From assembly GCA_000092065.1 (NCBI GenBank), contig CP000600.1: DNA of 64,000 bases; one strand, 5' to 3'. The DNA comes from Ostreococcus lucimarinus. Its lineage: Eukaryota. The notes under the pieces are model-generated. The model had not been told where the DNA came from. It searched no databases and worked only from the letters and a program-made list of their open reading frames with translations. Shown piece by piece: positions 8,117-33,258 of this stretch (position 1 is its first letter; each line of letters begins with the position of its first letter). A program made the translations under genes and the position numbers.

Positions 8117-10849
8117 TTAAACGCCGTACTGCTCAGCTAATTTTCTCATCACACCAGGTTCGAGATCCCGTACAACCATCGCCCACTGGTCGGTCCCAAC
8201 GTGATCCTTGAAGCCGCGCACAAGTTGACCCATGGTCGCGACGAGTTCATTGTTGCGGCACTGTCTCCACGACGCAACGGCCTCGACAAATGCGCTCAAA
8301 CCACTCGTCGCGCCCGACGGATTCATCTGAATCAACTTGCAAAGCCCCATGAAGCCGTGTTCTTTTTCAACGCCATCGCGAAGTCGTCTCAGAGCAGAGC
8401 ACCAAGACGTGATGAAATGCGCGAGACCACCTTGTAATTCTTCAGGACACGTCATCGAAAGTCGACCAAGACTTATGGCGGCATTTTCGCCAAGGGCTCT
8501 GTTCACCATTCGCATGTCGAGAATTTGAACCAAACATTGCGCCAGTGGCGCTACAAATGGACGCAATACGTCGCTTGACGTTCGAATGGCGATCTCGCCG
8601 GCGGCCCAGCTTGCGTTATTGCATACAGACATGTTCATGGATATGACCATCGCTGGCTGCAACTGCGCAACAATGAGCTCCATCAACTGTTGCAAAGACG
8701 GAGTCAAGTGCGCAGTACTCGAACGTGTGAGATCGCCCACGAGTGCGAATGCGCTACGTCTGACTCCTGGGGACTCATCCATGCACGAAGCGATGAGAAT
8801 ATCTCGAATAGGCGACTGCGCGACGAGCGGCTCGATGGCTTGTCCCATGCCTTCGCATAAACCAGAAAGCAAGTCCAAGGTACAAATGACGATGTCGATT
8901 GCGTACTCTTCGGCTGGCATCTCGCCGCGTTGCACTGCAGTGCGCTGCTGAAGCTGGTATGTCAAAGCGGAAATGCATTTTGCGAAAATCCCAGACGAGA
9001 ACTCGGCCGATGCCTGCCCGAGGCCGACGATTATCGCCGTGAGGCACTCGAGCAAATGATACAGCTCAGGGTCCACCTTGTTCGCATTCTCCCACTTTTG
9101 AAGCATTCCTGGTAAGATCGCACCGGCGTACCGCGCATCCTCAATCGACGGACCGATATTCTCCGCGAGCATGGTCAGTGCGTCGTACAAGTTGCGCATA
9201 TTCTTCCGCTGGTATGTAGCCAGCGCCTGGGTGAGCGTCTGCACGATAGTTTCGGTCCAAGGCGCCAGCGTGTCTTGACCTTCGGCGAGAAGGGTCGCGA
9301 TCGCGCCGCAAGCTGCGGCTTGAACGTGTTTGTTGTGATCCAAGCACCTCTTGCAAAGCGCTGTCGTCAGCGTGTTGAGCTGCTCCATACCTTGCTGCTG
9401 GGGCATCGCGTTTGGATCGTTCGACGGCCTCGCGCACTGCAACGTCCATCGAGAGAATCGACTGAGCGTCCAGCAAGTCGTTGAGCGCACCAACGGACGG
9501 GCGTCATCCAGCATCGGTAAGAGGAAATTGATTAGCATCGGGAGGTATTGCAGCAAGCCGCCTGAACAGCCCTCAGCGACGGCGCCAAGGGCCAAAATAG
9601 CGCTCTCACGGATCTCCCACCTCGACTCGCGTAGTCTCTGCTCGACGACGGGTAGCAGAAGAGGCAGAAGCTCGTCGCCAAAGACGTTCGACAGGATGTC
9701 CAAACCATTTGCAGAACTCTTTCGGAGGTTCCACACGAAGTCATCGCTGTCGTCTTGGCCGTCATCCTCTCCTTCTCCTTGTGAGCCTTTATCCTTGGTA
9801 TCACGAAACGTGGGTTTGATGTCTTGATCTCTGTCTTCCCTTCCCACGTTCACTTCGTCGTCCTCGGCCGAAATCACTTCCTCGTCGTCCTCCGTGTACG
9901 CCATGTTTGTCAACAACACTGGGATGAGTCTCGGCGTAAACTCGCGCAAAATTTGCACATAATCATCACCCAGTTCGGCCTCACAGAACGCTCCCCAGAA
10001 CTCGCACGACTCCATGGCGACGTCTTTATCCTCGTCGTCCTGCCTTTCGAGCATGTACACGATGATTTCCCGCAAATTCGGCGCCAACTTTTCTGGACAA
10101 ATGTGAATCAACATGACCAAGCCCGAGCACACCAGCCTTCGAACGTCGTTGTCCGGATCGTTCGCGAGCGAAAACAATCCTTGCAAGTAACTATCCAACA
10201 GCGCGTAGTGGTTTTCCGGCCAGCACGGCGCGATCATGTTCACCACGCCGACCGCTTGCTGGCGCACCTTGGCCGCCGGCGAGGAGAACAACGCGAACAG
10301 TCGCGGAATCACCATCCCCGCGGGCGAATCCGGCAACCCGGGCACTTTGACGTCCAATCTCCCGTTCACCTCCTCGCACGCCTTGTACAGCGCGCCCAGG
10401 GCACCGTCTCGAGAATTCTCGTCCCCCGCCTCGACCGCTCTCACGAGCGTCGGCCACAGGTCGCCCCAATTTTCAACCCCCCCGCACCGCACGATCACCG
10501 CCACGCACGTCCCGCACGTCCCCCTGATCAATCTCGACGGGTGTCCCAGCGCTCTCAGCAGCGTTTCTCGCACGTACGTCCTGTACTCTTCGCTCATCGT
10601 CGTCGTCCACGACGTCTTCAGATTATTCTTCAACAGCAGTCCCGCGCTCTGTCGCACGTCCTCCCTCCGTCCCGCGTCCTCGTCGCTCGTCAGCACGTGC
10701 GCGAGGTAGTTATTAAAGTCCGGAAACCCCGCGCATTGCTCCAGCCTGCCCAGCATCTCTCGCTGATTCGCGCGCGGGTCCAAGTATTCGGCGATCATCT
10801 GAATGATTCGCGCCGCCCCGTCCCCGTTCGGGGTCCACGCCGTCGCCAT
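8117..10849 (-). CDS. TNPO1: Transportin-1 / karyopherin beta-2, 910 aa.
   Basis: N-terminus MATAWTPNGDGAARIIQMIAEYLDPRANQREMLGRLEQCAGFPDFNNYLAHVL matches the transportin-1 N-terminal signature (...QYPDFNNYLIFVL). HEAT-repeat architecture, an acidic loop, and an ~900-aa length fit. Confidence 0.9.
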   Translation of the reverse strand: MATAWTPNGDGAARIIQMIAEYLDPRANQREMLGRLEQCAGFPDFNNYLAHVLTSDEDAGRREDVRQSAGLLLKNNLKTSWTTTMSEEYRTYVRETLLRALGHPSRLIRGTCGTCVAVIVRCGGVENWGDLWPTLVRAVEAGDENSRDGALGALYKACEEVNGRLDVKVPGLPDSPAGMVIPRLFALFSSPAAKVRQQAVGVVNMIAPCWPENHYALLDSYLQGLFSLANDPDNDVRRLVCSGLVMLIHICPEKLAPNLREIIVYMLERQDDEDKDVAMESCEFWGAFCEAELGDDYVQILREFTPRLIPVLLTNMAYTEDDEEVISAEDDEVNVGREDRDQDIKPTFRDTKDKGSQGEGEDDGQDDSDDFVWNLRKSSANGLDILSNVFGDELLPLLLPVVEQRLRESRWEIRESAILALGAVAEGCSGGLLQYLPMLINFLLPMLDDARPLVRSTTCWTLSRFSRWTLQCARPSNDPNAMPQQQGMEQLNTLTTALCKRCLDHNKHVQAAACGAIATLLAEGQDTLAPWTETIVQTLTQALATYQRKNMRNLYDALTMLAENIGPSIEDARYAGAILPGMLQKWENANKVDPELYHLLECLTAIIVGLGQASAEFSSGIFAKCISALTYQLQQRTAVQRGEMPAEEYAIDIVICTLDLLSGLCEGMGQAIEPLVAQSPIRDILIASCMDESPGVRRSAFALVGDLTRSSTAHLTPSLQQLMELIVAQLQPAMVISMNMSVCNNASWAAGEIAIRTSSDVLRPFVAPLAQCLVQILDMRMVNRALGENAAISLGRLSMTCPEELQGGLAHFITSWCSALRRLRDGVEKEHGFMGLCKLIQMNPSGATSGLSAFVEAVASWRQCRNNELVATMGQLVRGFKDHVGTDQWAMVVRDLEPGVMRKLAEQYGV

Positions 10850-11037
10850 CGCGCGCGGGAGCGCGCGTCGCGCGTCGCGTCGCGTCGCTCGACGCGCTCG
10901 CGTCGCGGTCGCGCTCGCGTCGCGCTGTGCGGGACGACGGATCGATCGCCGCGCGCGTCGGCGTCGGATAACCTCACGGCGCGACGCGCGACGCGCGCTC
11001 CGCGAGCGCGCGTCGAGCGACGACGACGACGCGCGCG

Positions 11038-12138
11038 ATGACGACGATGATGACGCGCGCGACGGCGACGACGCGCGCGACGGCGGGCGGACGCGCGAGC
11101 GGGAGCGCGGACGCGCGGACGACGCGACGCGTCGCGATGCCGAGCCGGGACGCGGCGACGACGGCGCGCGCGCGACGCGACGCGCGAGCGCGAGCGATGA
11201 AGCGGGTGTTCATCGATGGCGAGGCCGGAACCACGGGGCTTCAGGTGCGCGAACGGTTGGAGGCGCGAGGGGACGTCGAGCTGATTCAACTGGATGAGGG
11301 CTCGAGAAAGAATCTCGAGGCGAGACGCGCGGCGTTGAACGAGTGCGACGCGGCGATTCTGTGCCTTCCCGATCAGGCGGCGGAGGAGGCGGTGAAATTG
11401 GTGGAGAATGAGACGACGGTGGTGATCGATGCGTCGACGGCTTTTCGCGTCGCCGATGGTTGGACGTACGGATTCCCGGAGCTGGCGCCAGGGCATCGAG
11501 AGTTGGTCAAGGCGTCGAAGAGAATCTCAAATCCGGGGTGCTATCCCACCGGGTTCATCGCACTCACTAGACCATTGGTTGACGCGGGCATCCTGTCTCC
11601 AGGCGCGGCGTTGACGGTGAACGCGGTGAGCGGGTACACGGGCGGCGGTAAGGCGCTCATCAAGGTGTACGAGGAGGAAGAACACGAGCCGTGGGGCGCT
11701 TACGGATTTAATCTCGAACACAAGCACTTGCCAGAGATGGCGAAATGGAGCATGATCGGTCGTGAACCAATTTTCATGCCATCTGTCGGTTCCTTCGCGC
11801 AAGGTATGGTGGTGAGCGTACCGTTGCATTACGATCAACTTGCCGCCGACGCTCGCAGCGCCAAGCGTCTGCATGAGTGCTTACGCGCGCGGTACGCGCA
11901 GAGTACGTACGTTTCGGTGCGAGATTTGAACAAGATGGACGACCTCGAGCGTGGAGCTTTCATGAGACCAGACTCTTTGGCGAACACGAACAAGCTCGAG
12001 TTAAGTGTTTACGCCAACGACTCAAAGCGAACCGCCGTTCTCGTGGCAAGGTTAGATAATTTGGGCAAAGGTGCTTCGGGTGCGGCGGTGCAAAACATGA
12101 ACTTGGCGCTTGGACTGGATGAAACAATGGGATTGTAG
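11038..12138 (+). CDS. argC: N-acetyl-gamma-glutamyl-phosphate reductase of the short bacterial uncommon form (ArgC type 2), with a 53-aa Arg/Ala/Thr-rich N-terminal extension.
   Basis: MKRVFIDGEAGTTGLQVRERL..., the catalytic NPGCYPTG motif, VNAVSGYTGGGK, and the C-terminal LDNLGKGASGAAVQNMNLALG are collinear with the ~310-aa ArgC uncommon-form family. The domain alone would start at the ATG at 11197. The upstream extension looks like a transit peptide. Confidence 0.8.
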   Translation: MTTMMTRATATTRATAGGRASGSADARTTRRVAMPSRDAATTARARRDARARAMKRVFIDGEAGTTGLQVRERLEARGDVELIQLDEGSRKNLEARRAALNECDAAILCLPDQAAEEAVKLVENETTVVIDASTAFRVADGWTYGFPELAPGHRELVKASKRISNPGCYPTGFIALTRPLVDAGILSPGAALTVNAVSGYTGGGKALIKVYEEEEHEPWGAYGFNLEHKHLPEMAKWSMIGREPIFMPSVGSFAQGMVVSVPLHYDQLAADARSAKRLHECLRARYAQSTYVSVRDLNKMDDLERGAFMRPDSLANTNKLELSVYANDSKRTAVLVARLDNLGKGASGAAVQNMNLALGLDETMGL

Positions 12139-13631: not shown

Positions 13632-14918
13632 ATGCGCCGCGCGCTGGACGACGACGATGATCTCGGAGGCGCGCGTCGACGACGCGACGGCGCGCGAGCG
13701 CGCGCGGGGGCGCGAACGAGCGCGGCGAAGGCGGATGGGGACGGTTGCGCCGCGCGCGGTGCGTCGGCGGCGGCGCGCGAGGAGAACGGCGGCGCGGCGG
13801 CGCCGGGCGAGGGCGAGGGCGCGGGAGGGGCGATGCGCGTCGCGCGCGAGTGGGTCGGGGGTGATGGCGCGAAGGCGCGCGCGAGGGGCGTGGGGAGCGG
13901 GGGCGCGGCGAGGCGGGCGGCGCGCGGGCTAAATATAGCGACGACGACCGCGGTCGGGATGTACGTGTATTGGATACTCATGGGGACGGTGGCTTGGATC
14001 TCGCACTTGGGCGAACGCGCGCCGTGGTTGAGGTTCGCGCTACCGGCGGAAGGATATCCGGGAAACGCGCCGTCGAGCGCGGGGGCGCTCGGATTCGTCG
14101 CGAGAAACGTGCCGCTGAGTCTCATCTTTGTCGTGCCGCATTCAGTGTTTTTGCCGAGTCGATTGCGGAAGATTTTCGGAAAACATGGGCGTTTGATGTA
14201 TAATTTCGTGTCTGCGGCGACGTTGCACTTCTTCTTGTTGAATTTTACGCCGTTGAAGACGCCGGTGGTGATGACGATTCCATTCAACACGAATTTTCAC
14301 AACGCGCTCTCGATTGGATGTCTCGCTTACGCGTCGTATGCGTTCCTCAGCTCACCCGCAACGTTAGGTTTATTAGGTGTGAGCTCGGCGCTCGAGCTTC
14401 GCGACAGTAAATACTCCAATCCAGCGGCTGGCATGGACGCCATCACGTGGATGGGCGTGACGACGTGGCGGCTCGGCGGCGCCTCCGCCTTTGTATTGTT
14501 CACCGGTCTATCCATCATCCCGCGCGAGCTCACGTTGGGTGACTGCATCACGAGATGTGTTGCTGCGGTGTATTTACGTCAGCGCTCGCGATCGTTCCGC
14601 GAGTGGGTGGAAAAGATCGAGGGCGTCCACCTCTTGACGTGGATTTTACGAGGCACGCTCTTGTCCTTCGCGTGTCACGGCGCCTTGCAAGGCGGTGGAA
14701 ACGTTCGCACAGTGGGATGGATTTTATTCGGCGCCGCGAGTTTAGCGGGAATTCTGCGTCTCGCCGAGTCAGAGAGTCCGAACGCTAAGAAGAAACCCAT
14801 TTCTCGCGCCGCGTCCTTTGACGTCGCCGAAGCCGCGCCCGCGGCGCTCGACGACGTCGCCCGAGTCAATCGCCCGGAGCGCTGGCACGCGTGGAACCCG
14901 CACGCTCGCATGACGTGA
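13632..14918 (+). CDS. Multi-pass membrane protein with a low-complexity N-terminus. Family not assigned.
   Basis: At least 6 hydrophobic helices (YVYWILMGTVAWISHL..., LSLIFVVPHSVFLP..., ATLHFFLLNFTPL...). The start within the GC-rich Arg/Ala/Gly N-terminal 100 aa is uncertain. Confidence 0.5.
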   Translation: MRRALDDDDDLGGARRRRDGARARAGARTSAAKADGDGCAARGASAAAREENGGAAAPGEGEGAGGAMRVAREWVGGDGAKARARGVGSGGAARRAARGLNIATTTAVGMYVYWILMGTVAWISHLGERAPWLRFALPAEGYPGNAPSSAGALGFVARNVPLSLIFVVPHSVFLPSRLRKIFGKHGRLMYNFVSAATLHFFLLNFTPLKTPVVMTIPFNTNFHNALSIGCLAYASYAFLSSPATLGLLGVSSALELRDSKYSNPAAGMDAITWMGVTTWRLGGASAFVLFTGLSIIPRELTLGDCITRCVAAVYLRQRSRSFREWVEKIEGVHLLTWILRGTLLSFACHGALQGGGNVRTVGWILFGAASLAGILRLAESESPNAKKKPISRAASFDVAEAAPAALDDVARVNRPERWHAWNPHARMT

Positions 14919-17907: not shown

Positions 17908-18030
17908 ATGCGCGCGAGCGGCGCGTCGTCGTCGCTCGAGCGCGGCGTCGTCGTCGATGGACGACGCGCGCGACCGCGCGACGCGCGCGCGACGGCGACG
18001 GCGAGGACGCGGATCGCGACGACGCGAATC

Positions 18031-18065
<35 letters not shown>

Positions 18066-19548
18066 ACGGACGAGGACGAGGACGCGCGCGACGGCGACGC
18101 GCGTCGATGAGAAAGACGTCGATGAGGACGACGAGGAGGACGACGCGTACTACACGTGGCGCGTGGGGGGGGCGAACGATTTGAAGATCACGCACCTGCG
18201 GGACGTGCATCGCGGCGACGCGCCGCCGCGAGCGAGGCCGAGCCCGTTCTGCACGAAGAGCTCGTGCCCGCTGAACGTCGGACCGAGAACGTCGCTGACG
18301 TTTAATAGTAACTTTGTGAGCAATAGTGATCGGATATTGCTGAACTCGGTGGCGTACGGGAGCGCGGCGGATCCGACGCAGACGTGCTCGTTGTCGAGCG
18401 ACGTGTACGACCCGAGCGGGTGCGATTACGTGCCGGAGTGGGTCGTCCGGGCGGGACCGAGGGCGGAGGTTTATTTCGATCCAGAGGAAGTGCACGCGGC
18501 GGTGGTGACGTGCGGAGGATTGTGCCCGGGAATCAATGACGTCATTCGATCGCTCGTGAACACCCTGGAGGTTGGCTACGGGGTGAAGAAGATTAGCGGC
18601 GTGCGATACGGATTTAAAGGGTTCTTCTCCGGCGACGAATTCATGCCGTTGAACAGGAAGGTGGTGAGAAACATTCACAACATCGGTGGGTCTGCGCTTG
18701 GATCCGGCAGAGGCGGTGGAGACGTGGAGAAAATCGTGGAATCTATCGTAAATAACGGAATCAACATGGTTTTCGTCATCGGCGGCAACGGCACGCACGC
18801 CGGGGCAAACGCGATAAGTAATGAATGCGCCAAGCGAGGGGTCAAGGTCTCCGTAGTGGGCGTCCCGAAGACGATAGATAACGATATCCTTCTTCTGGAT
18901 AAGACTTTTGGGTTCGACACCGCGGTCGAAGAGGCACAGAAAGCGATTCAAGCCGCGGCCATTGAGGCGCAGAGCGCCTATCGCGGCGTCGGCGTGGTGA
19001 AGCTCATGGGACGTCAGAGCGGATTTATAGCCATGTTCGCGACGCTGGCGAACGGACAAGTCGATTGCTGTTTGATTCCCGAGATTAGCTGGGCGGCACA
19101 CGGCCCGAATGGCGTGGTCGAGTACGTTCGAAACATGTTGGACGCTCAAGGTCACGCCGTCGTCGTCCTCGCCGAGGGCGCCGGCCAAGAGTTCGTCTCC
19201 GCCGGCGGCACCGACGCCGGCGGTAACCCCAAGCTCGGTGACATCGGTCAATGGTTTTGCAAGCAACTCAAAGCCGAGATCAAGTGCGACGTCAAGTACA
19301 TCGATCCCACGTACATGGTTCGCGGTTGCGTCGCCAACGCCCACGATTCCATCATGTGCACCGTCCTCGGCCAAAACGCCGTCCACGGCGCCTTCGCCGG
19401 TTTCACCGGCATCTCCGTCGGCTCCGTCAGCGCGCACACCGCGTTTTTACCGATCCCTCGCATGATCGAGCGCGAGCGTTTGGTCGATCCCGACGGTCGC
19501 ATGTGGCACCGCACCCTGGCCAGCACCGGGCAGCCAGACTTCTTCTGA
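17908..19548 (+). CDS. PFK: ATP-dependent 6-phosphofructokinase, plant/algal PFK type.
   Basis: GPRAEVYFDPEEVHAAVVTCGGLCPGINDVIR, IGGNGTHAGANAIS, PKTIDNDI and MGRQSGFIAM motifs. Long N-terminal extension with Thr/Arg repeats. Confidence 0.85.
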
Positions 19549-23606: not shown

Positions 23607-25334
23607 TTATACTTGCGACGTCGTCGCGTCGTCGTCGTCCTGGCGCCATCCCGGTGGACCTCTAAGGTATCGAAACGTGATATTGATTCGTTCTTTTCCG
23701 TTCGTCGGGACGCGATTCTTCGGCACCGCGTGATAATGAGTGTGCTGCAAGGAACCGTCCATCACCATCAGCGAGCCGTGCTCGAGAAAGATTGATGTCT
23801 TCTTCTTCGCTCGAGATTTCACCTGAACGTCAAACTTTCTCGTGTGACCGACGCTCACGGCCGCGATACACGCGTTTTTACCGAGTTCGGGTTCGTCATC
23901 GGCGTGAAACGCCATGGAATCGTCCCCATCGCGATAACGATTTAAAAGTATATGGTTGAACGTCGCGCCGCATTTCGCCTCAACCGCGGTCTGCAGGCGG
24001 CGCAACACCTCAGGCACGGGTACCGGATCGAGCGTCTGGCCACTATATTTGTACGGTAGATCGCCCGCCCACGACACGAGTCTCGGTTGGACGACTTCTT
24101 TCGTGACGCCTTTGTCGGGTTGCCAAACGACGATGGAGCGCTGCGCCCATGTCACGGGCGGCGACGACACGAGGCTAGACAACAGTTCGTTCGCCGCGTC
24201 TTCGTCGAGGAATTGACGACAAATGCCTAATCTCCCATCGGACTCCTCTGGGTCGACGACTTTGTACACTAACTCGGTCGGATTGTCGTCGAATCCTTCG
24301 AAACTGCTAACGATTTGCCGCTCGAGTTCCGCCTCGACGTTGCGTCGCTGTTCTTCCACGTTCACGCCGAAAAATTCGAGCAAAATCGCTTCCATCTCGT
24401 CGTAGTGCGCAACATCTTCCCGTAATCGTGAAACAGCGACGGCGTCGCCCGCGTCCGCGAGCCGCTCGAGTCGCGTCAAGTTTAGGCTCGACTGCCTGCG
24501 CACCTCGCGAACCCATTCCAGACGTTTTTTGACGTACAACTTGAGCAACGGCGACTCTTTCGGAGATTGTGCGCCCAAACACGGGCCTATGATTTCATCT
24601 CTCATCGTGAACGGTCGTTTCGTCGCAGCCGTCTCGTTCTCCGCGCACAGAATCAGATGCATCGTTCCGTTTTCCACGACGAGCCGCTCGTCGACGACGC
24701 GATAGTCGTTCGCGCGCAACCATCGACGCACTTGCGCGCCATCTTTCGCCGGCGGATTCAACACTACGCGCTTTAAACTTCCGCGTCGGTTTCCCGACCC
24801 CCCACACCCGCCCTCCTCGAGCACGCGCGCCATGGTATTCGCCCCCACGCCCGCGACGACCAAGACGTCGACGCGCTCGTCGTCCCGCAGCGCCGACAAC
24901 CCGTCGCCCAGTCTCAAATCCACCGTATCCACCGCCGCGCCATCACCGCCGACCATCTCCACTTCTTTTTTCGCCCTCGCCACGTTCTTTTTCGCGCGTT
25001 CAATCTCCGCCTCGCTTCGATCGATCGCGACGACTCGCGTCGCGTTCGCCTCGGACGCGCAGCCGAGCGCCAGCAGCGCGTGTCCGCAGCAGCAATCCAC
25101 CACGACGCCCTCCCCGTCGCCGTCTTCGATCGCGCTCATCGCTCGCAGCGCTTGCAACCGAGACGACCACGCCCACGACGCCGCGCGCGGGACGTCGTCG
25201 CGGTCGAGCGCGGGCGCGTCCGGGGCGTCGCGCGCTCTGAACCGCGCGCGCGCGTCCCCGCGGCGGCGACGTCCCGCCGCGCGACGAGGCGTCGACGTCG
25301 ACGTCGCGCTCGACGCGCGCGCGCTCGACCGCAT
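23607..25334 (-). CDS. Fusion protein: N-terminal TrmK-like tRNA (adenine-N1)-methyltransferase domain plus a C-terminal AlkB-family Fe(II)/2-oxoglutarate dioxygenase domain.
   Basis: N-terminal half is collinear with bacterial TrmK (LQALRAMSAIEDG..VVVDCCCGHALLALGC; VDLRLGDGLSALRDDERVDVLVVAGVGANTMARVLEEG; RVVLNPP). C-terminal half carries AlkB motifs: FNHILLNRYRDGDDSMAFHADDEPELG, the H-x-D iron ligands, HGSLMVMDGSLQHTHYHAVP, and RINITFR. Start taken at the ATG at 25334, in frame with the TrmK N-terminal LSKRLQ-equivalent. The long low-complexity extension of the ORF track beyond 25334 was rejected as antisense to MAD2. Confidence 0.75.
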   Translation of the reverse strand: MRSSARASSATSTSTPRRAAGRRRRGDARARFRARDAPDAPALDRDDVPRAASWAWSSRLQALRAMSAIEDGDGEGVVVDCCCGHALLALGCASEANATRVVAIDRSEAEIERAKKNVARAKKEVEMVGGDGAAVDTVDLRLGDGLSALRDDERVDVLVVAGVGANTMARVLEEGGCGGSGNRRGSLKRVVLNPPAKDGAQVRRWLRANDYRVVDERLVVENGTMHLILCAENETAATKRPFTMRDEIIGPCLGAQSPKESPLLKLYVKKRLEWVREVRRQSSLNLTRLERLADAGDAVAVSRLREDVAHYDEMEAILLEFFGVNVEEQRRNVEAELERQIVSSFEGFDDNPTELVYKVVDPEESDGRLGICRQFLDEDAANELLSSLVSSPPVTWAQRSIVVWQPDKGVTKEVVQPRLVSWAGDLPYKYSGQTLDPVPVPEVLRRLQTAVEAKCGATFNHILLNRYRDGDDSMAFHADDEPELGKNACIAAVSVGHTRKFDVQVKSRAKKKTSIFLEHGSLMVMDGSLQHTHYHAVPKNRVPTNGKERINITFRYLRGPPGWRQDDDDATTSQV

Positions 25335-25524
25335 GGTCGACGCCGCGACGCGCCGGCGCCCGCGAGCGCGCGACGTCGGCGTGTGCGCGGCGTCGCGAGG
25401 GCGACGGACGCTCGCGCTCGACCTCGACGTCCAGGCGCCGACGTCGAGCGCGGGATCGGTTTGAATCGAAACCGCAGTGAAACGCGCGCTCGAGCGCGCC
25501 GACGCCGCGACGCTCGAACGCGAC

Positions 25525-25893
25525 ATGGCGCAAGAGCAACGGCGCGGCGCGACGTCGAGCGCGATCACGCTCCGAGGGTCGACCGAGCTCGTGACGGAGT
25601 TTTTCGGGTACGCGGTGAACACCATCTTGTACCAGCGCGGGGTGTACCCGGCGGAGGAGTTTGAACGAAAGAAAAAGTACGGACTCGGGGTGATGGTGAC
25701 GAACGAACCGAAATTAAAGGAATACTTGGTCGCCGCGCTCGAACGCGTGAACGCGTGGTTGATGGAGAAGGATTTGAAAAAGTTGGTGCTGGTGCTCGCG
25801 GACGCGAAGACTGGGGAGACGCTGGAGCGCTGGACGTTCGACGTGGAGACGGATGCGGAGATCGTGGATGAGAACGGTGGTGATGCGAACGGA

Positions 25894-25943
<50 letters not shown>

Positions 25944-26208
25944 GGAGAAGCCGGAGAAGGAAATTATGCAAGAGATACAAGCCATCATTCGGCAAATCAC
26001 GGCTTCGGTGACGTTTTTGCCTCTGCTCGATCGCGAGTGCGCGTTCGAACTCTTGGCGTACACGGACGCGGCGAGCGCGACGCCGGAGGAGTGCGAAGAG
26101 AGCGATCCGAAGTATGTTCGAGACGGCGTCGAGATGCGGTTGCGTTCGTTTAGCACGAAGATCCATACCGTCGACGCGGGGGTGTCGTACAAGACGGAGG
26201 ACGACTGA
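25525..26208 (+). CDS. MAD2: Mitotic spindle assembly checkpoint protein MAD2 (HORMA domain), with a 16-residue poly-Thr insertion.
   Basis: ITLRGSTELVTEFFGYAVNTILYQRGVYPAEEFERKKKYGL...LERWTFDVE...IRQITASVTFLPLL...EVRLRSFSTKIHTVDAGVSYK is collinear with MAD2 over its whole length. An (ACG)16 array at 25894..25941 encodes the poly-Thr. Confidence 0.9.
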
Positions 26209-27144
26209 ACCGCGAGCGAGAGCGACATTTGTAATATCAACCAACGAAGCCGACGCAACGCGCAGCGCGTACGGTGAATGCGGTACGCGCTCGACGCCCA
26301 ATTCAACTCGCATCGTCCGACGAACGCTAAGTCTTTACGTACAAGCCGAAATTAAACGCGCCGACGTCGGCCGGCGCGCGCGACGCGACGCGCGACGTTG
26401 ACCGAGCTCACCCCGAATCGGCGTCCGATGTCGACGAAAAGTTAGGACAAGCTAGAACGTGTAACTCTCGTGTCGTCACAAAAGTTTCGGCGACGTTCGC
26501 GCCGTCGAGCGGTGCGAAGTCGCGCCGAACCATCGCGAGCAAACCATCACACACCATCTCAAATGATGCAAAATCCATCATTCGGGCGCTTAAATCGCGT
26601 CCGAATTCGACGAAAAGTTGGGAAAAGCTGGAGAACGAAAAGTTCTCGCCGTCGGCGCGAAAAGCATAAAGAAACCAAGCGATACCGGGGGTTCCTGACG
26701 TCTTCCGACATCGGTACTTATCCGGCCCACGCGGTCTTAACTGAGAAGTTCCGATGGGTTTCTGTGATTTTCCGCGGGTGTGGTCGCTTGATGACACCAT
26801 GTGCCGCACGACCCTTTAGCCGCGCACCACGCGGGGTCACGGCGCGAACGTTACGGGTACTTTTGACGCCGTGTCGGTACTTTAAGAGTCGAAAACCTAT
26901 ACATTCACAAAATGCACCCCTCAATTATCGCGTCATCGCATCGCCGCTCGCGATTAGGCGCTTAAAAACCTCGATGTACGTGAATTCATCGCCCTTTTTT
27001 CGTTTCGTTCCCTGACTTTACCCTGTTTACCCCGTCTGACTGTTTACCCATAGATACCATAGAATTCAAGCGGTCGCAAACAACAACACGGATCCCCACC
27101 CCCCCTCGACACGCGCGCATGCCCCCCTGTGCCGCGGTCGTTGA

Positions 27145-28491: not shown

Positions 28492-31400
28492 TTAAGCAGT
28501 GGCTTCAACTCCAGCCTTAACATCGTTCGTCGCCTCCGGCGTGTTCGCCTCAGACGGCGGAACTAACTGCCAGAACTTGGGCAAATAGTTGGCCCAGTCA
28601 GCGAGGATAGCCTTCGCCTTCGGCGAGTTCGTCTTCTCGGCGTGCGCGGAGATGAGACCCTTGAGTTGGGCCTCACCCGCCGGCGTGATCACGCGCTGCA
28701 TGGCGACAATCTCGCCGTTCACCTTGGATTCGAACGTACCGTCTTCGTCGAGGAAGTAACCGATGCCACCAGTCATACCCGCGCCAACGTTGCGGCCAAC
28801 CTTGCCGATCGCGACGACGCAACCACCCGTCATGTATTCGCAGCAGTGGTCGCCAGTGCCTTCAACGACCGCTTCACCGAGCGAGTTACGGACGGCGAAG
28901 CGTTCACCAGCGCGACCGCTGATAAACACTTGACCACCAGTGGCGCCGTACAAGCACGCGTTACCCGCGATGCTCGCCGACTCCGGCGCGAACGGAGAGT
29001 TCGGAGGAGGCATGATGGCAATCTCACCGCCACTCATGCTCTTCGCCACGTAATCGTTCGCTTCACCCACAAGTCGCACTTTCAGGCCACCGACAACGAA
29101 AGCACCGAAAGATTGACCGCTGGAACCCTCGATGTCTAAGGTGAGAGAACCAGCGAAGCCATTGTCGCCGTACTTCTTGGCGATTTGACCGGCGACGCGC
29201 GCCGTCGCGCAACGGTCGACGTTGACAATCTCCACCTTCTTCGTGTACGTGCCTTCGGTTTCGATGCACTTTTGGACTTCCGGATCGCTAAGGATCTTGT
29301 CATCGAGAACGATACCGTCGTTGTGCACCGGTTGCGCGATGCGGTCCGAGGAAGCGCCAGCCTCGCCAGAGGACGTGGTGAGGAAGGACAAGTCGAGAGA
29401 CGAAGTCTTCGCCGGCGCCTTGTCAATTTGGCTGAGCAAGTCGTTGCGACCGATGATCTCATCGAGAGATCTGTAACCCATTTGGGCGAGGATCTCGCGC
29501 ACTTCTTGCGCGGCGTACATGAAGAAGTTGACAAGATCGCTTGGCGCACCGGGGAAGCGCGCGCGAAGCTCTTCGCGCTGGGACGCAACACCAACGGGGC
29601 AGTTGTTGGTGTGGCAAATACGAGCCATGACGCAGCCAGTGGCAATCATCGCAACGGTACCGAAACCGTATTCATCGGCACCCATGAGAGCGGTTTGGAT
29701 GACGTCAAGACCGGAGCGGCAGCCACCATCGGCGCGCAAGACGACGCGCTCGCGAAGGCCATTCTCAACGAGAGTTCTGTGCGATTCGACGAGACCCATC
29801 TCCAACGGACCACCGCAGTGCTTGATGGACGACAAAGGAGACGCGCCGGTACCACCATCGCCACCCGAAATTTGGATGATGTCGGCGTTCGCCTTGGCGA
29901 CGCCGGACGCCACCGTGCCGATGCCCGCTTGGGACACGAGCTTCACGGACACCTTCGAGTTCTTGTTGACCATGTGCAAGTCATAGATGAGCTGCGCGAG
30001 ATCCTCAATGGAGTAGATGTCGTGATGCGGCGGCGGGGAGATGAGCGGGACACCAGCCTTGGATCGGCGGAGCCAGGCAATGTACGGGGAAACCTTCTTA
30101 CCCGGAAGCTGACCACCTTCTCCCGGCTTGGCACCTTGCGCCACCTTGATTTCGGTCTGGTTGGCAGACATCAAGAACGACGTCGTGACACCAAAGCGAC
30201 CGGAAGCGACTTGCTTGATAGCGGAAGACGCGACGTCGCCATTCTCCATGCCTCGAAGGTACGGGAACGTTTCAGACTTGCCATCCGCGGTGGCGTCAGT
30301 GATGGTTTCGAATCGCTTCGGGTCTTCGCCACCTTCACCAGAGTTGGATTTACCACCGATGCGGTTCATCGCGATGGCGATAGATTCGTGGCACTCTTGG
30401 GAGATAGCACCGAGAGACATACCACCCGTGCAGAAGCGCGTGCAAATGTCAGCGACGGATTCGACCTCATCGACGGAGATCGGTTGGCGGTCAGACTTGA
30501 TTTCGAGTTGATCGCGCAAGCACGTGTACGGACGATCGTTGCGGTGCGCTTGGTAGGCGCTCCAGAACTCATCATTCTTTTCACCACCACCGAGGCCAAC
30601 AGCCTTGTGAAGAAGCTTAGACATCTCTTGGTTGTTGCCGTGGTATTCCAATCCCGGCTTGACTTGGAACATACCGCGCGCCTCAACCTTGGCCATCTCT
30701 TCAGCCTCACCCGGGAAAGCGGACTGGACAAACATGTGCGTCTCCGCGGCAACTTCATCCATGGTGAGACCACCGATGCGGGAAACGGTGCCCTTGAAGG
30801 CGGTGTTGATGACTTCAGGCCCAAGACCGTAGCACTCGAAAATTTGCGCGCCTTGGTACGAGGTGATCAAAGAGATACCCATCTTAGACAAGATCTTCTT
30901 GAGACCCTTGTTGAGGGCATTCTTGAAGTTGACTTGCACACCTTCCACAGAGACATCACCCATCTTACCGCGCTGGATGGCGGTCTCGACCTTCGGGGAC
31001 TTTCTCCATGACCGGCAGGTTTCCAAAGCCAACCACGGGCACACAGCGTGTGCGCCGAAACCAACCAAGGTGGCAATGTGGTGCGTGCTGAACGCCGAAG
31101 CAGACTCCACGACGATAGACGCGCGGGTTCGAAGACCTTGCGCGATCAAGTAGTGGTGCACGGTACCAACAGCGAGAAGCGAGGGAATCGCGGGCGAGTC
31201 CGGACCTTGATCCGGACGATCCGTGATGACGATGCACTCGCTGCCGGCGCGAATCGCCGCGGCGGCCTCTTCGCAAAGCTTGTCAAGGCCAGCCTTGAGG
31301 GCACCAGCGGCACCACCAGCGGCGTAACGCGCGGCAATAGTTTGCGTCTTCAGCTTCGGGTGGTTCTTAATGTGCTCCAACTCAGAGTCGAAGAGGACCG

Positions 31401-33258
31401 GGGAGTCGAGCATGACCGGCGGCGTTTCCTTGCCTTGCGTGTCGAGCAAGTTGCCCTTCGCACCAAGAGTCATGGCCAAGGACATGACGAGACCCTCGCG
31501 AAGAGGGTCGATGGCGGGGTTGGTAACTTGCGCGAAGCGTTGCTTGAAGTAGTCATAAAGCAAGCGCGGTCGGCCAGACAAGACGGGCATCGGGGTGTCG
31601 TCGCCCATCGACCAAGTGGGTTCGATGGCATCGGACGCCATCGATTCAATGATCATCGTGATGTCTTCGGCGGCGTAACCGGCGCGAGCTTGGCACTCGA
31701 TGAGTTGGATCGGGTCCAGTTGCGTCGCGCCAATGGGTTCGATGCCCTTGACGCGATCGATGGCCTTCATCCATTCGCCGTACGGGAGGCGCGCGGAGAC
31801 TTCCTTCGCGATTTCCGTATTTTCCTTGAACTCGCCCGTCTCCAAATCAGCGTAAATCATCATACCCGGGCCGAGACGGCCCTTGGAGACGACATTGGAC
31901 GCGTTGGACATGACATCACCGAGGACACCAACTTCCGAGGCGACGTAGATGTAATCATCGGACGTGCGCCAGAAGCGCGCCGGGCGCAACCCGTTGCGGT
32001 CGAGGCGGGCGCCGAGCTGCTTGCCATCGGAGAAGACGAGCAACGCTGGACCATCCCACGCTTCTTGCATCCCAGCGTAATAATCGTAGAAATCATGAAC
32101 TTCCGGGAACGTCGCATCGAGTTCGGGGTGGTTGCGGTGCGCTTCTGGCACAAGCAACATCATAGTCTCCGCCGGCGCGCGGCCGGTTCTCACCAGGAGC
32201 TCCGCGACTCTGTCGAGGTTGGCGGAATCGGAGGCAGCCGGATTACAGATCGGGCGGAATTCCGGTTCACGACCGCCCCAGATCGGGTTCTCCATATCAG
32301 CTTCCTTAGACGCCATCCAGTTCAAGTTACCTTGAAGGGTGTTGATCTCACCGTTGTGTCCCAAGAAACGCATCGGTTGCGAGAGTGGCCACTTCGGCGT
32401 CGTGTTCGTGGAGAAACGGCGGTGGTAAATCGAGAACTGCGACTCGTAGTCGGGGTCTTCCAAATCCTTGTAGAACTTGCCCAACACCGCGGATCGAAGC
32501 ATACCCTTGTACACAATCGTGCGGGAGCTCAAGGTGCAAATGTAGAAGCTCTCAGCTAACACGGCGTCGGAGCTCGCCGACTTTTCGCACGTCTTGCGCG
32601 CGATGAACAACTTGCGCTCGAGCTCTTCGCGTTCCAAGCCCGCCCCGTCGACGAGAATCTGTTCGTGCACCGGGCACGTCATCTTCGCGAGCGGACCGAC
32701 GACGGAGTTGTCCACCGGAACCGCACGCCAACCGAGCACCTTGAGGCCTTCGGCGACGCAGCTCGCCTCAAGAATCTTCTTCGCCTCAGCCGCCTTGGCA
32801 CCGTCGGTGGGCAACATAACCATACCGACCGCCGAGGAGCCTTCAGAGAATCCACTGATACCATTCGCCGCGCACCACTTGTCCAAAAGCTTCCACGGAA
32901 TGTGCGTCATGACACCGACACCATCACCAGAGTCGTTGTCCGCCGAGCACGCCCCGCGGTGCTCCATGCACCCGACAGCCATCAAGGAATCTTTCACAGT
33001 CTTGTGCGTGCGCTCACCCTTCAACGAAGCGATGAAACCGACCCCGCACGCATCATGCTCTTCCAAAAGCTGCGTGTTATCCACCGCACCGCCTTCATAC
33101 ACGGGCCAATCGCCGTACACCGACCCTCGCTCCGCCAGGCACACCGTCTTCGCGCGGTCGCGTCCCGGCACGCGCACCGTCGAGCACTTGGGCAACGCCG
33201 CGGGCTTACGCAACGTCACCGGGGACGGAGTAAACTTCTGCGCGATGTAAATGATCAC
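28492..33258 (-). CDS. GLU1: Ferredoxin-dependent glutamate synthase (Fd-GOGAT), single 1588-aa polypeptide.
   Basis: Amidotransferase N-terminus with catalytic Cys (..[10 protein letters not shown]), central domain, FMN/Fe-S domain (..GGTGASP.., Cys cluster) and C-terminal GXGXG beta-helix domain. The length is typical of the Fd type rather than the NADH type. About 70-aa presequence. Confidence 0.9.

What the first reader, a model, noticed from the sequence alone, without database searches (positions are those of the whole stretch)
11038..12138. Bacterial short-form ArgC with a transit-peptide-like extension
The catalytic domain is the ~310-aa uncommon ArgC type (MK.VFIDGE.GTTGLQ...NPGCYPTG...LDNLGKGASGAAVQNM) characteristic of some alphaproteobacteria. 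It is not the ~350-400-aa common form used by plants and most algae. It is preceded by 53 residues rich in Arg/Ala/Thr/Ser. This is consistent with horizontal acquisition of arginine-pathway capacity followed by organelle targeting.
Basis: partly seen in the sequence, partly recalled or inferred. Interest (0 to 1): 0.6.

Follow-up and report, generated by a model that had tools for sequence, protein, structure and literature searches.

The report
Plastid-targeted type-2 ArgC in Ostreococcus
This is an ordinary nuclear arginine-pathway gene of the green picoalga Ostreococcus that uses the less common "type 2" bacterial form of the enzyme behind a real targeting peptide. The same gene is shared with diatoms, a dinoflagellate and Paulinella, so it is an old, widespread replacement and not a recent acquisition.

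Summary
Window 11038..12138 (+) is an intron-less 366-aa ORF. Residues 56-360 match NCBIfam TIGR01851 (argC_other) at 394.7 bits (cutoff 229.85). The common-type model TIGR01850 stays below its cutoff. The window is Ostreococcus lucimarinus or a near relative, with eukaryotic neighbours and host-like codon usage.

The 53-residue extension is very probably translated. Every orthologue read lacks a Met at the start of the catalytic domain, so all must start upstream. The RefSeq model (313 aa) therefore looks N-truncated. Orthologues carry targeting signals typical of their lineage. Diatoms have a signal peptide plus an [A/G/S]-F motif, and Mamiellophyceae have Arg/Ala/Ser/Thr-rich, non-hydrophobic presequences. 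Plastid import is inferred, not shown.

The interpretation needs correcting in three ways.
- All eukaryotic type-2 ArgCs form one clade (97% bootstrap). It includes Ostreococcus, Bathycoccus, diatoms, a dinoflagellate and Paulinella. Its most frequent sister is a marine alphaproteobacterium, a Kiloniella MAG (67%).
- Other green algae keep type 1, and no named Mamiellophyceae type 1 was found.
- So this is an ancient, shared displacement of one pathway step, not a genome-specific gain of arginine-pathway capacity.

Known enzyme, known family. Modest interest.

The parts
10850..11037 (.). 188-nt CGCG-rich intergenic region between the divergently transcribed importin-beta gene (8117..10849, -) and ArgC. 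It presumably holds a bidirectional promoter and both 5' UTRs, and it contains the in-frame TAA at 10969-10971.
   Evidence: The same divergent arrangement is seen in a second Ostreococcus-like genome (L121).
11038..11196 (+). N-terminal presequence of 53 aa (MTTMMTRATATTRATAGGRASGSADARTTRRVAMPSRDAATTARARRDARARA). It is inferred to be a plastid transit peptide ending in an ..ARA|MK.. site. The start could be M1, M4 or M5.
   Evidence: Composition: R 23%, A 28%, S+T 26%, D+E 6%, net charge +9, no hydrophobic stretch. In-frame GC3 is 0.91 and the codon-usage score is 0.635, against 0.34 and 0.39 in the other two frames. Orthologues have no Met at the mature start, and the ATG is GTG in L121. AlphaFold pLDDT is below 50 for residues 1-51.
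11197..12138 (+). [quoted passage not shown]
   Evidence: TIGR01851 at 394.7 bits, above the 229.85 cutoff. Pfam Semialdhyde_dh and Semialdhyde_dhC_1. The model is confident from residue 54 onward, and the best PDB fold matches are ArgC structures.
11212..11238 (+). Rossmann dinucleotide-binding motif IDGEAGTTG (residues 59-67).
   Evidence: Invariant in 25 eukaryotic orthologues and conserved in bacterial type-2 proteins.
11530..11553 (+). Active-site motif NPGCYPTG (residues 165-172) with the catalytic Cys168.
   Evidence: Read directly. Invariant. Aligns to the PGCYPT motif of solved type-1 ArgC.
11719..11727 (+). HKH motif (His228-Lys229-His230), the position of the conserved active-site histidine of ArgC.
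   Evidence: Invariant. Aligns with the H.H.PE motif of M. tuberculosis ArgC.
12052..12099 (+). C-terminal signature LDNLGKGASGAAVQNM (residues 339-354).
   Evidence: Read. DNLGKGASG is invariant.

Best explanation
This is a resident, single-exon nuclear gene of Ostreococcus (O. lucimarinus or a near relative). [quoted passage not shown]

The mature 313-aa enzyme has a Rossmann NADPH-binding domain (IDGEAGTTG) and a catalytic domain with Cys168 and the HKH histidines. By analogy with characterised ArgC enzymes, the Cys thiolate attacks the acyl phosphate and releases phosphate. The resulting thioester is then reduced by NADPH to N-acetylglutamate-5-semialdehyde.

Translation starts at or near ATG 11038. 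The roughly 53-residue presequence is Arg/Ala/Thr/Ser-rich, acid-poor, non-hydrophobic and disordered. It most likely directs the precursor into the plastid stroma, where it is removed close to ..ARA|MKRVF. That leaves a protein starting where the bacterial proteins start.

In evolutionary terms, a type-2 argC from a marine alphaproteobacterium-like donor entered an algal lineage once. It replaced the type-1 enzyme in Mamiellophyceae. The same gene is shared, by alga-to-alga transfer of unresolved direction, with diatoms, dinoflagellates and Paulinella, each with its own kind of targeting signal.

Shown here: family membership, conserved catalytic residues, eukaryotic context, a single eukaryotic clade, and the need for an upstream start in orthologues. 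Inferred: enzyme activity, plastid (rather than mitochondrial) destination, the cleavage site, loss of type 1, and the donor.
For: Family and residues:
- TIGR01851 at 394.7 bits against a 229.85 cutoff; TIGR01850 below its cutoff.
- The reciprocal control with Arabidopsis, and the same result for the T. pseudonana, Bathycoccus, Effrenium and Paulinella orthologues.
- Catalytic and cofactor motifs are invariant.
- The fold model is confident for residues 54-366 and its best matches are ArgC structures.

Nuclear resident gene:
- Neighbours are importin-beta, a protein kinase, a WD40 protein, an SPB4-type helicase, PFK and Fd-GOGAT.
- GC1-3 is 0.61/0.44/0.69, like importin at 0.59/0.43/0.69.
- The index lists the protein in 470 metagenome blocks, and the five loci shown have identical neighbours.
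- Gene order is conserved in another Ostreococcus-like genome. The downstream gene is conserved next to ArgC in Bathycoccus.

The extension is coding:
- Orthologues read ALKRVF, AVKRVF, AVKKIF, AIKRVF, TKKKVF, GKKKVF, KKKRIF and AKKKIF, with no Met at the mature start.
- ATG 11197 is GTG in L121, and DNA conservation begins exactly at the mature start.
- The extension has the best codon usage and highest GC3 in this frame.

Targeting:
- Mamiellophyceae presequences have net charge +5 to +10, few acidic residues and a maximum hydropathy of 0.97 or less.
- 9 of 9 diatom orthologues have a signal peptide plus an [A/G/S]-F motif. Effrenium has a signal peptide, a transit peptide and a hydrophobic segment.
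- P. tricornutum AGPR is scored 'plastid, high confidence' (TTA-FV) and is the only AGPR in that genome-scale model.

Evolution:
- The type-1/type-2 split has 100% bootstrap and eukaryotic type-2 monophyly has 97%. A Kiloniella MAG is sister in 202 of 300 replicates.
- The best bacterial identities are 58% (Kiloniella MAG) and 56% (an alphaproteobacterial MAG).
- Type 1 is present in Chloropicon, Pycnococcus, Pyramimonas, core chlorophytes and streptophytes. No named Mamiellophyceae appeared.
Against: - No transcript, ribosome-profiling or proteomic evidence for the start codon was available. The RefSeq model XP_001422554.1 starts at M54.
- The presequence lies in low-complexity DNA where long ORFs run on both strands. 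One antisense frame also gives an S/T-rich peptide.
- No targeting predictor could be run, and green-algal plastid and mitochondrial presequences are hard to tell apart.
- Absence of type 1 in Mamiellophyceae rests on top-120 hit lists that end at about 57-60% identity, not on a whole-genome search.
- The trees are neighbour-joining with a simple distance correction. The sister group has only 67% support, and relationships inside the eukaryotic clade are unresolved.
Confidence: 0.8

Rival explanations
1. The public gene model is right. Translation starts at M54 (ATG 11197), the enzyme is a 313-aa cytosolic protein, and 11038-11196 is GC-rich 5' UTR that happens to be open.
For: RefSeq XP_001422554.1 is 313 aa. 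An ATG sits exactly at the start of the bacterial-like domain. The upstream DNA is low complexity with long ORFs on both strands.
Against: No orthologue has a Met there, including other Ostreococcus-like genomes, Bathycoccus, diatoms, Effrenium and Paulinella. The next Met downstream would remove the NADPH-binding motif, so all of them need an upstream start. The frame has the best codon usage and GC3. Presequence character, though not sequence, is conserved. With scanning initiation, three upstream in-frame ATGs (11038, 11047, 11050) would be used first, provided they lie in the mRNA.
Confidence: 0.08
2. The presequence is a mitochondrial targeting peptide, and this step of ornithine synthesis runs in the mitochondrion, as in fungi.
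For: It is Arg/Ala-rich with net charge +9 and few acidic residues. The acetylated ornithine pathway is mitochondrial in fungi (general knowledge). AlphaFold draws a short helix at residues 40-48, at low confidence.
Against: It has no Leu, Ile or Phe, only one Val, and 26% Ser+Thr, so an amphipathic hydrophobic face is unlikely. Orthologues in diatoms carry the plastid-specific signal peptide plus Phe motif, and P. tricornutum AGPR is scored plastid, high confidence. The pathway is plastidial in plants.
Confidence: 0.1
3. The gene is a bacterial contaminant or a very recent, strain-specific horizontal transfer.
For: The domain has a bacterial-type length and matches a model built for bacterial annotation.
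Against: It lies between eukaryotic genes on a contig seen in many independent assemblies. Its codon usage is like its neighbours. Gene order is conserved across Ostreococcus-like genomes and partly in Bathycoccus. It is at most 58% identical to any bacterial protein found, but 60-88% identical to other algae.
Confidence: 0.01
4. The type-2 gene was inherited vertically from the alphaproteobacterial ancestor of mitochondria and lost in most eukaryotes. It was not horizontally acquired.
For: The nearest bacteria are Alphaproteobacteria.
Against: Every eukaryotic member identified is from a photosynthetic lineage and carries plastid- or chromatophore-type signals. Sister green-algal classes have type 1. 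In the exhaustive cluster search, full-length eukaryotic sequences reduce to two 50%-identity representatives, and the other presequence-bearing rows are mostly fragments. Vertical descent would need very many independent losses.
Confidence: 0.07

Closest known systems
Bacterial type-2 ArgC (NCBIfam TIGR01851 'argC_other'), for example in a Kiloniella MAG, Reyranella, Brevundimonas, Bradyrhizobium and Mesorhizobium
   Same: Same HMM family, scoring well above the cutoff. About 310-aa catalytic core, same IDGxxGTTG, PGCYPT, HKH and DNLGKGASG motifs, 50-58% identity. Rhizobiales argC, including that of Mesorhizobium loti, has been tested by replacement in a Sinorhizobium meliloti argC mutant. 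Type-2 membership was shown here for a different Mesorhizobium genome, not for the genes used in that study.
   Different: The bacterial proteins start at the catalytic domain. The window protein adds a 53-aa presequence, is nuclear-encoded with eukaryotic neighbours, and belongs to a separate eukaryote-only clade (97% bootstrap).
[quoted passage not shown]
   Same: T. pseudonana P0074 is an orthologue in the same eukaryotic type-2 clade, 57-60% identical (60-62% over the local alignment), with TIGR01851 at 429 bits. The P. tricornutum AGPR is treated in the literature as the plastid ornithine-pathway enzyme and is nitrate-responsive.
   Different: Diatom proteins carry a bipartite signal, a signal peptide plus an [A/G/S]-F motif, for four-membrane plastids. 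The Ostreococcus protein has a simple non-hydrophobic presequence. I did not have the P. tricornutum sequence itself, so its type is inferred from the other diatoms.
Canonical plant and green-algal ArgC type 1 (Arabidopsis At2g19940, PDB 1xyg; TIGR01850)
   Same: Same reaction, same two-domain fold (Foldseek E about 1e-19), same catalytic Cys/His motifs and a plastid presequence.
   Different: It belongs to a different HMM family (447 versus 105 bits) and is only about 23% identical in the structural alignment. The core is about 345 aa. The two types separate with 100% bootstrap. It is present in Pyramimonas, Pycnococcus, Chloropicon, core chlorophytes and streptophytes but was not found for Mamiellophyceae.

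Membership tests
ArgC type 2 (TIGR01851 argC_other) | Whole-protein score above the curated cutoff of the equivalog model, and higher than for the type-1 model | tested here: met
   394.7 bits against a 229.85 cutoff, covering profile positions 3-310 of 310. TIGR01850 scores 156.8, below its 233.6 cutoff. The reciprocal control with Arabidopsis behaves as expected.
ArgC type 2 (TIGR01851 argC_other) | Catalytic Cys in the PGCYPT motif and a conserved active-site His | tested here: met
   NPGCYPTG (Cys168) and HKH (His228/230) are invariant across eukaryotic and bacterial members and align to type-1 active-site motifs.
ArgC type 2 (TIGR01851 argC_other) | N-terminal Rossmann NAD(P)-binding domain and semialdehyde-dehydrogenase dimerisation/catalytic domain | tested here: met
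   Pfam PF01118 and PF22698. The IDGEAGTTG motif is invariant. The AlphaFold model is confident for residues 54-366 and its best PDB matches are ArgC and LysY, followed by ASADH.
ArgC type 2 (TIGR01851 argC_other) | Groups with type-2 and not type-1 sequences in a phylogeny | tested here: met
   The type-1/type-2 bipartition has 100% bootstrap (NJ, 86 sequences, 306 columns, 300 replicates).
ArgC type 2 (TIGR01851 argC_other) | [quoted passage not shown] | not testable with these tools
   Needs an enzyme assay or complementation of an argC mutant.
Plastid transit peptide (primary green plastid) | N-terminal extension relative to bacterial homologues, and actually translated | tested here: met
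   There are 53 residues before the point where bacterial proteins start. Orthologues lack a Met at the mature start. Codon usage favours this frame. No direct transcript or protein evidence was available.
Plastid transit peptide (primary green plastid) | Rich in Ser/Thr/Ala, net positive, poor in acidic residues, unstructured, and poorly conserved in sequence | tested here: met
   S+T 26%, A 28%, R 23%, D+E 6%, net charge +9. pLDDT is below 50 for residues 1-51. Orthologous presequences cannot be aligned but have similar composition.
Plastid transit peptide (primary green plastid) | Positive call by a trained predictor (TargetP/PredAlgo), or experimental plastid localisation | not testable with these tools
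   No predictor was available. The support is indirect: plastid-type bipartite signals on diatom and dinoflagellate orthologues.
   There is one eukaryotic clade (97%). A Kiloniella MAG is sister in 67% of replicates and other alphaproteobacteria in the rest. Nostoc was never sister. The distribution is patchy, since other green algae have type 1. The donor, the direction and the timing are not resolved by the NJ trees.

The most novel reading that the evidence does not exclude
A single type-2 argC from a Kiloniella-like marine alphaproteobacterium displaced the ancestral type-1 enzyme in one algal lineage. It then moved between unrelated photosynthetic eukaryotes: between Mamiellophyceae and diatoms or dinoflagellates, and from a Bathycoccaceae-like alga into Paulinella. 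Each time it picked up that host's own import signal: a simple transit peptide, a signal peptide plus Phe motif, a three-part dinoflagellate leader, or a long chromatophore-type leader. That would make it a compact, easily scored marker for alga-to-alga gene flow, including the disputed 'green genes' of diatoms.
Probability: 0.45. Interest if true: 0.45.

Novelty: already known. Interest (0 to 1): 0.27.

Why it matters
There are three practical points.
- The RefSeq and UniRef model of this O. lucimarinus gene (313 aa) probably lacks its targeting peptide. Localisation-based metabolic reconstructions would then wrongly place this step in the cytosol.
- The finding documents that Ostreococcus and Bathycoccus, diatoms, a dinoflagellate and Paulinella share one non-canonical ArgC, while other green algae keep type 1. 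This is another case of the mosaic, non-cyanobacterial make-up of plastid amino-acid pathways, and a possible marker for gene flow between algae.
- No type-2 ArgC structure appears to be solved.

None of this changes how arginine synthesis is understood. The enzyme, the family and the general evolutionary pattern are established.

Tried and rejected
- **Fd-GOGAT as a transit-peptide comparator.** I tried the Fd-GOGAT gene in the window (28492..33258, -) as an internal comparator. The ORF has no ATG before the mature Cys, so its first exon is probably elsewhere, and I dropped it.
- **Literature.** Searches for argC with Paulinella and HGT, argC with diatom and prasinophyte, TIGR01851, and the enzyme name with Micromonas gave nothing on the two-type distribution in algae. 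One search call failed on phrase length. A paper on the ornithine-urea cycle does not mention ArgC.
- **Type 1 in Mamiellophyceae.** A direct search with Arabidopsis would list only land plants, so I did not run it. Instead I scanned metagenomes with the Arabidopsis protein. That gave bacterial hits (no presequence; L088-L096) and one GC-rich green-algal contig, L087. L087 turned out to be Chloropicon-like, not Mamiellophyceae.
- **First NJ tree.** It included partial sequences and gave only 75% support for the eukaryotic clade. I rebuilt it with full-length sequences and type-1 outgroups. In one search the labelled 'E2+Kiloniella' test reads 0% because the prefix also captured a second Kiloniellales MAG. 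The correct figure is the sister-set count, 202 of 300.
- **Small minus-strand ORFs.** Pfam finds nothing for the small ORFs between ArgC and the next gene, or for the downstream 428-aa membrane-like protein.
- **Cyanobacterial origin.** I considered a plastid-ancestor origin because Nostoc genomes carry type-2 copies (46-48% identity). They never branch with the eukaryotes, so I rejected it.
Full report
**What is at the coordinates.** Window 11038..12138 (+) is an uninterrupted ORF of 366 codons that starts with ATG and ends with TAG. Pfam finds the semialdehyde-dehydrogenase NAD-binding and dimerisation domains. NCBIfam assigns residues 56-360 to TIGR01851 'argC_other' at 394.7 bits (cutoff 229.85), end to end on the 310-position profile. 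The common-type model TIGR01850 reaches only 156.8 bits against a cutoff of 233.6. As a control I recalled Arabidopsis At2g19940 ArgC from memory and confirmed it as 100% identical to PDB 1xyg residues 17-352. It scores the other way round, 447 bits on TIGR01850 and 105 on TIGR01851.

**Organism and context.** The protein is identical to cluster members from many marine metagenomes. It falls in the same 90% cluster as Ostreococcus lucimarinus CCE9901 XP_001422554.1/ABP00871.1. The neighbours are clearly eukaryotic:
- a divergently oriented 910-aa importin-beta (8117..10849, -);
- a protein kinase, a WD40 protein and an SPB4-type DEAD helicase;
- a TPT transporter, phosphofructokinase and Fd-GOGAT.

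Codon-position GC of the catalytic domain (0.61/0.44/0.69) and its codon-usage score match the neighbours, for example importin at 0.59/0.43/0.69. The index lists this exact protein in 470 blocks of the assembly collection, and all five loci shown have the same flanking genes. A second Ostreococcus-like genome (86% identity) has the same order, WD40 - importin(-) - ArgC(+) ... DEAD helicase. In Bathycoccus prasinos the homologue of the window's downstream gene (13632..14918) sits directly after ArgC. It is so close that the public model fuses the two (40% identity, E 8e-26). Contamination and recent transfer are excluded.

**Is the 53-residue extension translated?** An open frame means little here. 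The region 10850-11200 is CGCG-rich and long ORFs cross it on both strands. The public O. lucimarinus model starts at the internal Met (313 aa). Four results point the other way.
1. In every orthologue read, the residue aligned with M54 is not Met. The sequences read ALKRVF, AVKRVF, AVKKIF, AIKRVF, TKKKVF, GKKKVF, KKKRIF (Bathycoccus) and AKKKIF (T. pseudonana). At the DNA level ATG 11197 is GTG in locus L121. The next Met downstream would delete the NADPH-binding motif, so all orthologues must start upstream.
2. DNA conservation between the window and L121 is poor across the presequence and becomes high exactly at the mature start. The upstream ATGs lie within about 12 nt of each other in the alignment.
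3. The annotated frame has the highest GC3 (0.91) and the best host codon-usage score (0.635, against 0.34 and 0.39 in the other two frames).
4. The peptide in this frame is 26% Ser+Thr and 6% acidic. The other two sense frames give 54% Arg or 34% Asp+Glu.

ATG 11038 is the first ATG after the in-frame TAA at 10969-10971. M4 and M5 are equally possible starts. No transcript or peptide evidence was available, so I rate 'translated' as very likely but not proven.

**Where does the presequence send the protein?** The presequence has net charge +9 and no Leu, Ile or Phe. Its maximum 12-residue hydropathy is 0.13, and AlphaFold gives pLDDT below 50 for residues 1-51. The related Mamiellophyceae presequences differ in sequence but share this character. 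They have net charge +5 to +10, few acidic residues and no hydrophobic segment. They end in a similar ..[VT]x[RA]A|[MVLIT]K.. context, which resembles the stromal-processing-peptidase consensus (general knowledge, not tested).

The orthologues in algae with complex plastids are informative. Nine of nine diatom proteins begin with a hydrophobic signal peptide (hydropathy 1.5-2.5) followed by an [A/G/S]-Phe motif such as GEA|F, ASA|F, VAA|F or VEA|F. The Effrenium (dinoflagellate) protein has a signal peptide, a transit-like region and a second hydrophobic segment. The P. tricornutum AGPR (Phatr3_J36913) is listed in Smith et al. 2019 as 'TTA-FV, plastid - high confidence'. It is the only AGPR reaction in their genome-scale model (PMC6779911). 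In plants the pathway is plastidial (PMC4520006). I therefore infer plastid import for the Ostreococcus enzyme. A mitochondrial destination cannot be excluded without a predictor or an experiment.

**Evolutionary placement.** The 120 best database hits are all algal. They include Ostreococcus-like and Bathycoccus sequences, many diatoms and Paulinella chromatophora. One further cluster is Effrenium voratum. Representative members all pass TIGR01851 at 410-430 bits.

An exhaustive search of 1.84 billion 50%-identity representatives shows two full-length eukaryotic representatives. The score then drops from 458 to 336 bits, into 310-320-aa bacterial proteins without extensions. The best of these is an alphaproteobacterial MAG protein at 56% identity. 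A scan of GTDB species genomes gave the following:
- a Kiloniella MAG at 58%;
- Mongoliimonas, Reyranella, Brevundimonas, Caulobacter, Bradyrhizobium and others at 51-55%;
- Burkholderiaceae and Comamonadaceae at about 50-53%;
- Nostoc at 46-48%.

I built a neighbour-joining tree with 86 full-length sequences, 306 columns and 300 bootstraps. It gave:
- 100% support for the type-1/type-2 split;
- 97% for monophyly of all eukaryotic type-2 proteins;
- the Kiloniella MAG as their sister in 202 of 300 replicates;
- 93% for Paulinella grouping with the Ostreococcus-like sequences.

Nostoc was never sister. Relationships among Mamiellophyceae, diatoms and the dinoflagellate are unresolved.

**Does type 2 replace type 1?** The window cannot answer this directly. 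A metagenome scan with Arabidopsis ArgC recovered a GC-rich green-algal type-1 gene with a transit-like extension, L087. Homology searches with L087 and with a Pyramimonas type-1 protein returned named type-1 enzymes from Chloropicon, Pycnococcus, Pyramimonas, many core chlorophytes, streptophytes and Rhodospirillales bacteria at 57-66% identity. They returned no named Ostreococcus, Bathycoccus or Micromonas protein. The first two genera do carry names in the same database. This is indirect evidence, limited by the top-120 cut-off, that type 2 displaced type 1 in Mamiellophyceae. The 'canonical' plant enzyme is itself non-cyanobacterial according to Reyes-Prieto and Moustafa 2012 (PMC3518814). 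That agrees with its 60-64% identity to Magnetospirillum and Nitrospirillum proteins.

**Structure.** The AlphaFold model (mean pLDDT 81, pTM 0.77) is confident from residue 54 onward. Its best PDB matches are type-1 ArgC and LysY structures at 19-25% identity (Foldseek E about 1e-20 to 1e-16), followed by aspartate-semialdehyde dehydrogenases. Neither the sequence search nor the fold search found a solved type-2 structure.

**Verdict.** The 'transit-peptide-like extension' is supported and implies that the public gene model is truncated. The story of a notable horizontal acquisition in this genome is only partly right. The bacterial (alphaproteobacteria-like) ancestry is plausible. However, the event is old and shared by several major algal groups, and it most likely replaced an existing enzyme. 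It fits the already documented mosaic origin of plastid amino-acid pathways. This is a known enzyme of a known family in an annotated genome. Its interest is modest and mainly phylogenomic.

Noticed in passing
P0011 (Paulinella chromatophora transcript GEZN01007010.1; not in the window): Paulinella has a type-2 ArgC that is 75% identical to the window protein and groups with Ostreococcus-like sequences (93-96% bootstrap). It carries an N-terminal extension of about 175 aa with a hydrophobic helix (IGLAAAVGGWAL), which is reminiscent of the chromatophore targeting peptide. This suggests a transfer from a green alga to Paulinella of a chromatophore-imported enzyme.
   Followed up: partly
window 11197..12138 versus RefSeq XP_001422554.1: The public O. 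lucimarinus model is 313 aa and starts at the internal Met. It probably lacks the 53-aa presequence.
   Followed up: yes
P0038 (Bathycoccus prasinos 'unnamed protein product', 564 aa); window 13632..14918 (+): The Bathycoccus model fuses ArgC with the homologue of the window's downstream 428-aa membrane-like protein of unknown function (40% identity, E 8e-26). This is probably a merged gene model, but it shows conserved gene order. The downstream protein has no Pfam match.
   Followed up: partly
window 23607..26306 (-): An 899-aa ORF combines a TrmK-like tRNA methyltransferase domain (residues 403-606) with a C-terminal AlkB-like 2OG-Fe(II) oxygenase domain (694-879). This is an unusual pairing of a methyltransferase with a demethylase-type domain.
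   Followed up: no
window 28492..33258 (-): This is ferredoxin-type glutamate synthase (1588-aa ORF). The ORF has no ATG upstream of the mature N-terminal Cys (..[10 protein letters not shown]), so the start and transit peptide probably lie in a separate 5' exon.
   Followed up: no
type-1 ArgC hits; loci L088-L096: Plant and green-algal canonical ArgC is 60-64% identical to Rhodospirillales proteins (Magnetospirillum, Nitrospirillum, Terasakiella). Marine bacterial contigs score 58-59% to Arabidopsis. So both algal ArgC types look alphaproteobacteria-like, consistent with the non-cyanobacterial origin reported in PMC3518814.
   Followed up: partly
window 10850..11200: This is an extremely CG-rich (CGCG/GACG) low-complexity stretch spanning the divergent importin/ArgC promoter and the presequence. 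Long ORFs of 86-405 codons cross it on both strands.
   Followed up: partly
window 17908..19548 (+): The phosphofructokinase ORF has about 196 residues before the PFK domain begins. This may be a targeting or regulatory extension, or an over-extended ORF.
   Followed up: no
loci L020, L070, L072 (Nostoc); L005 ('Synechococcus' MAG): Some cyanobacterial genomes carry a type-2 ArgC (46-50% identity to the window protein). They do not branch with the algal clade.
   Followed up: partly
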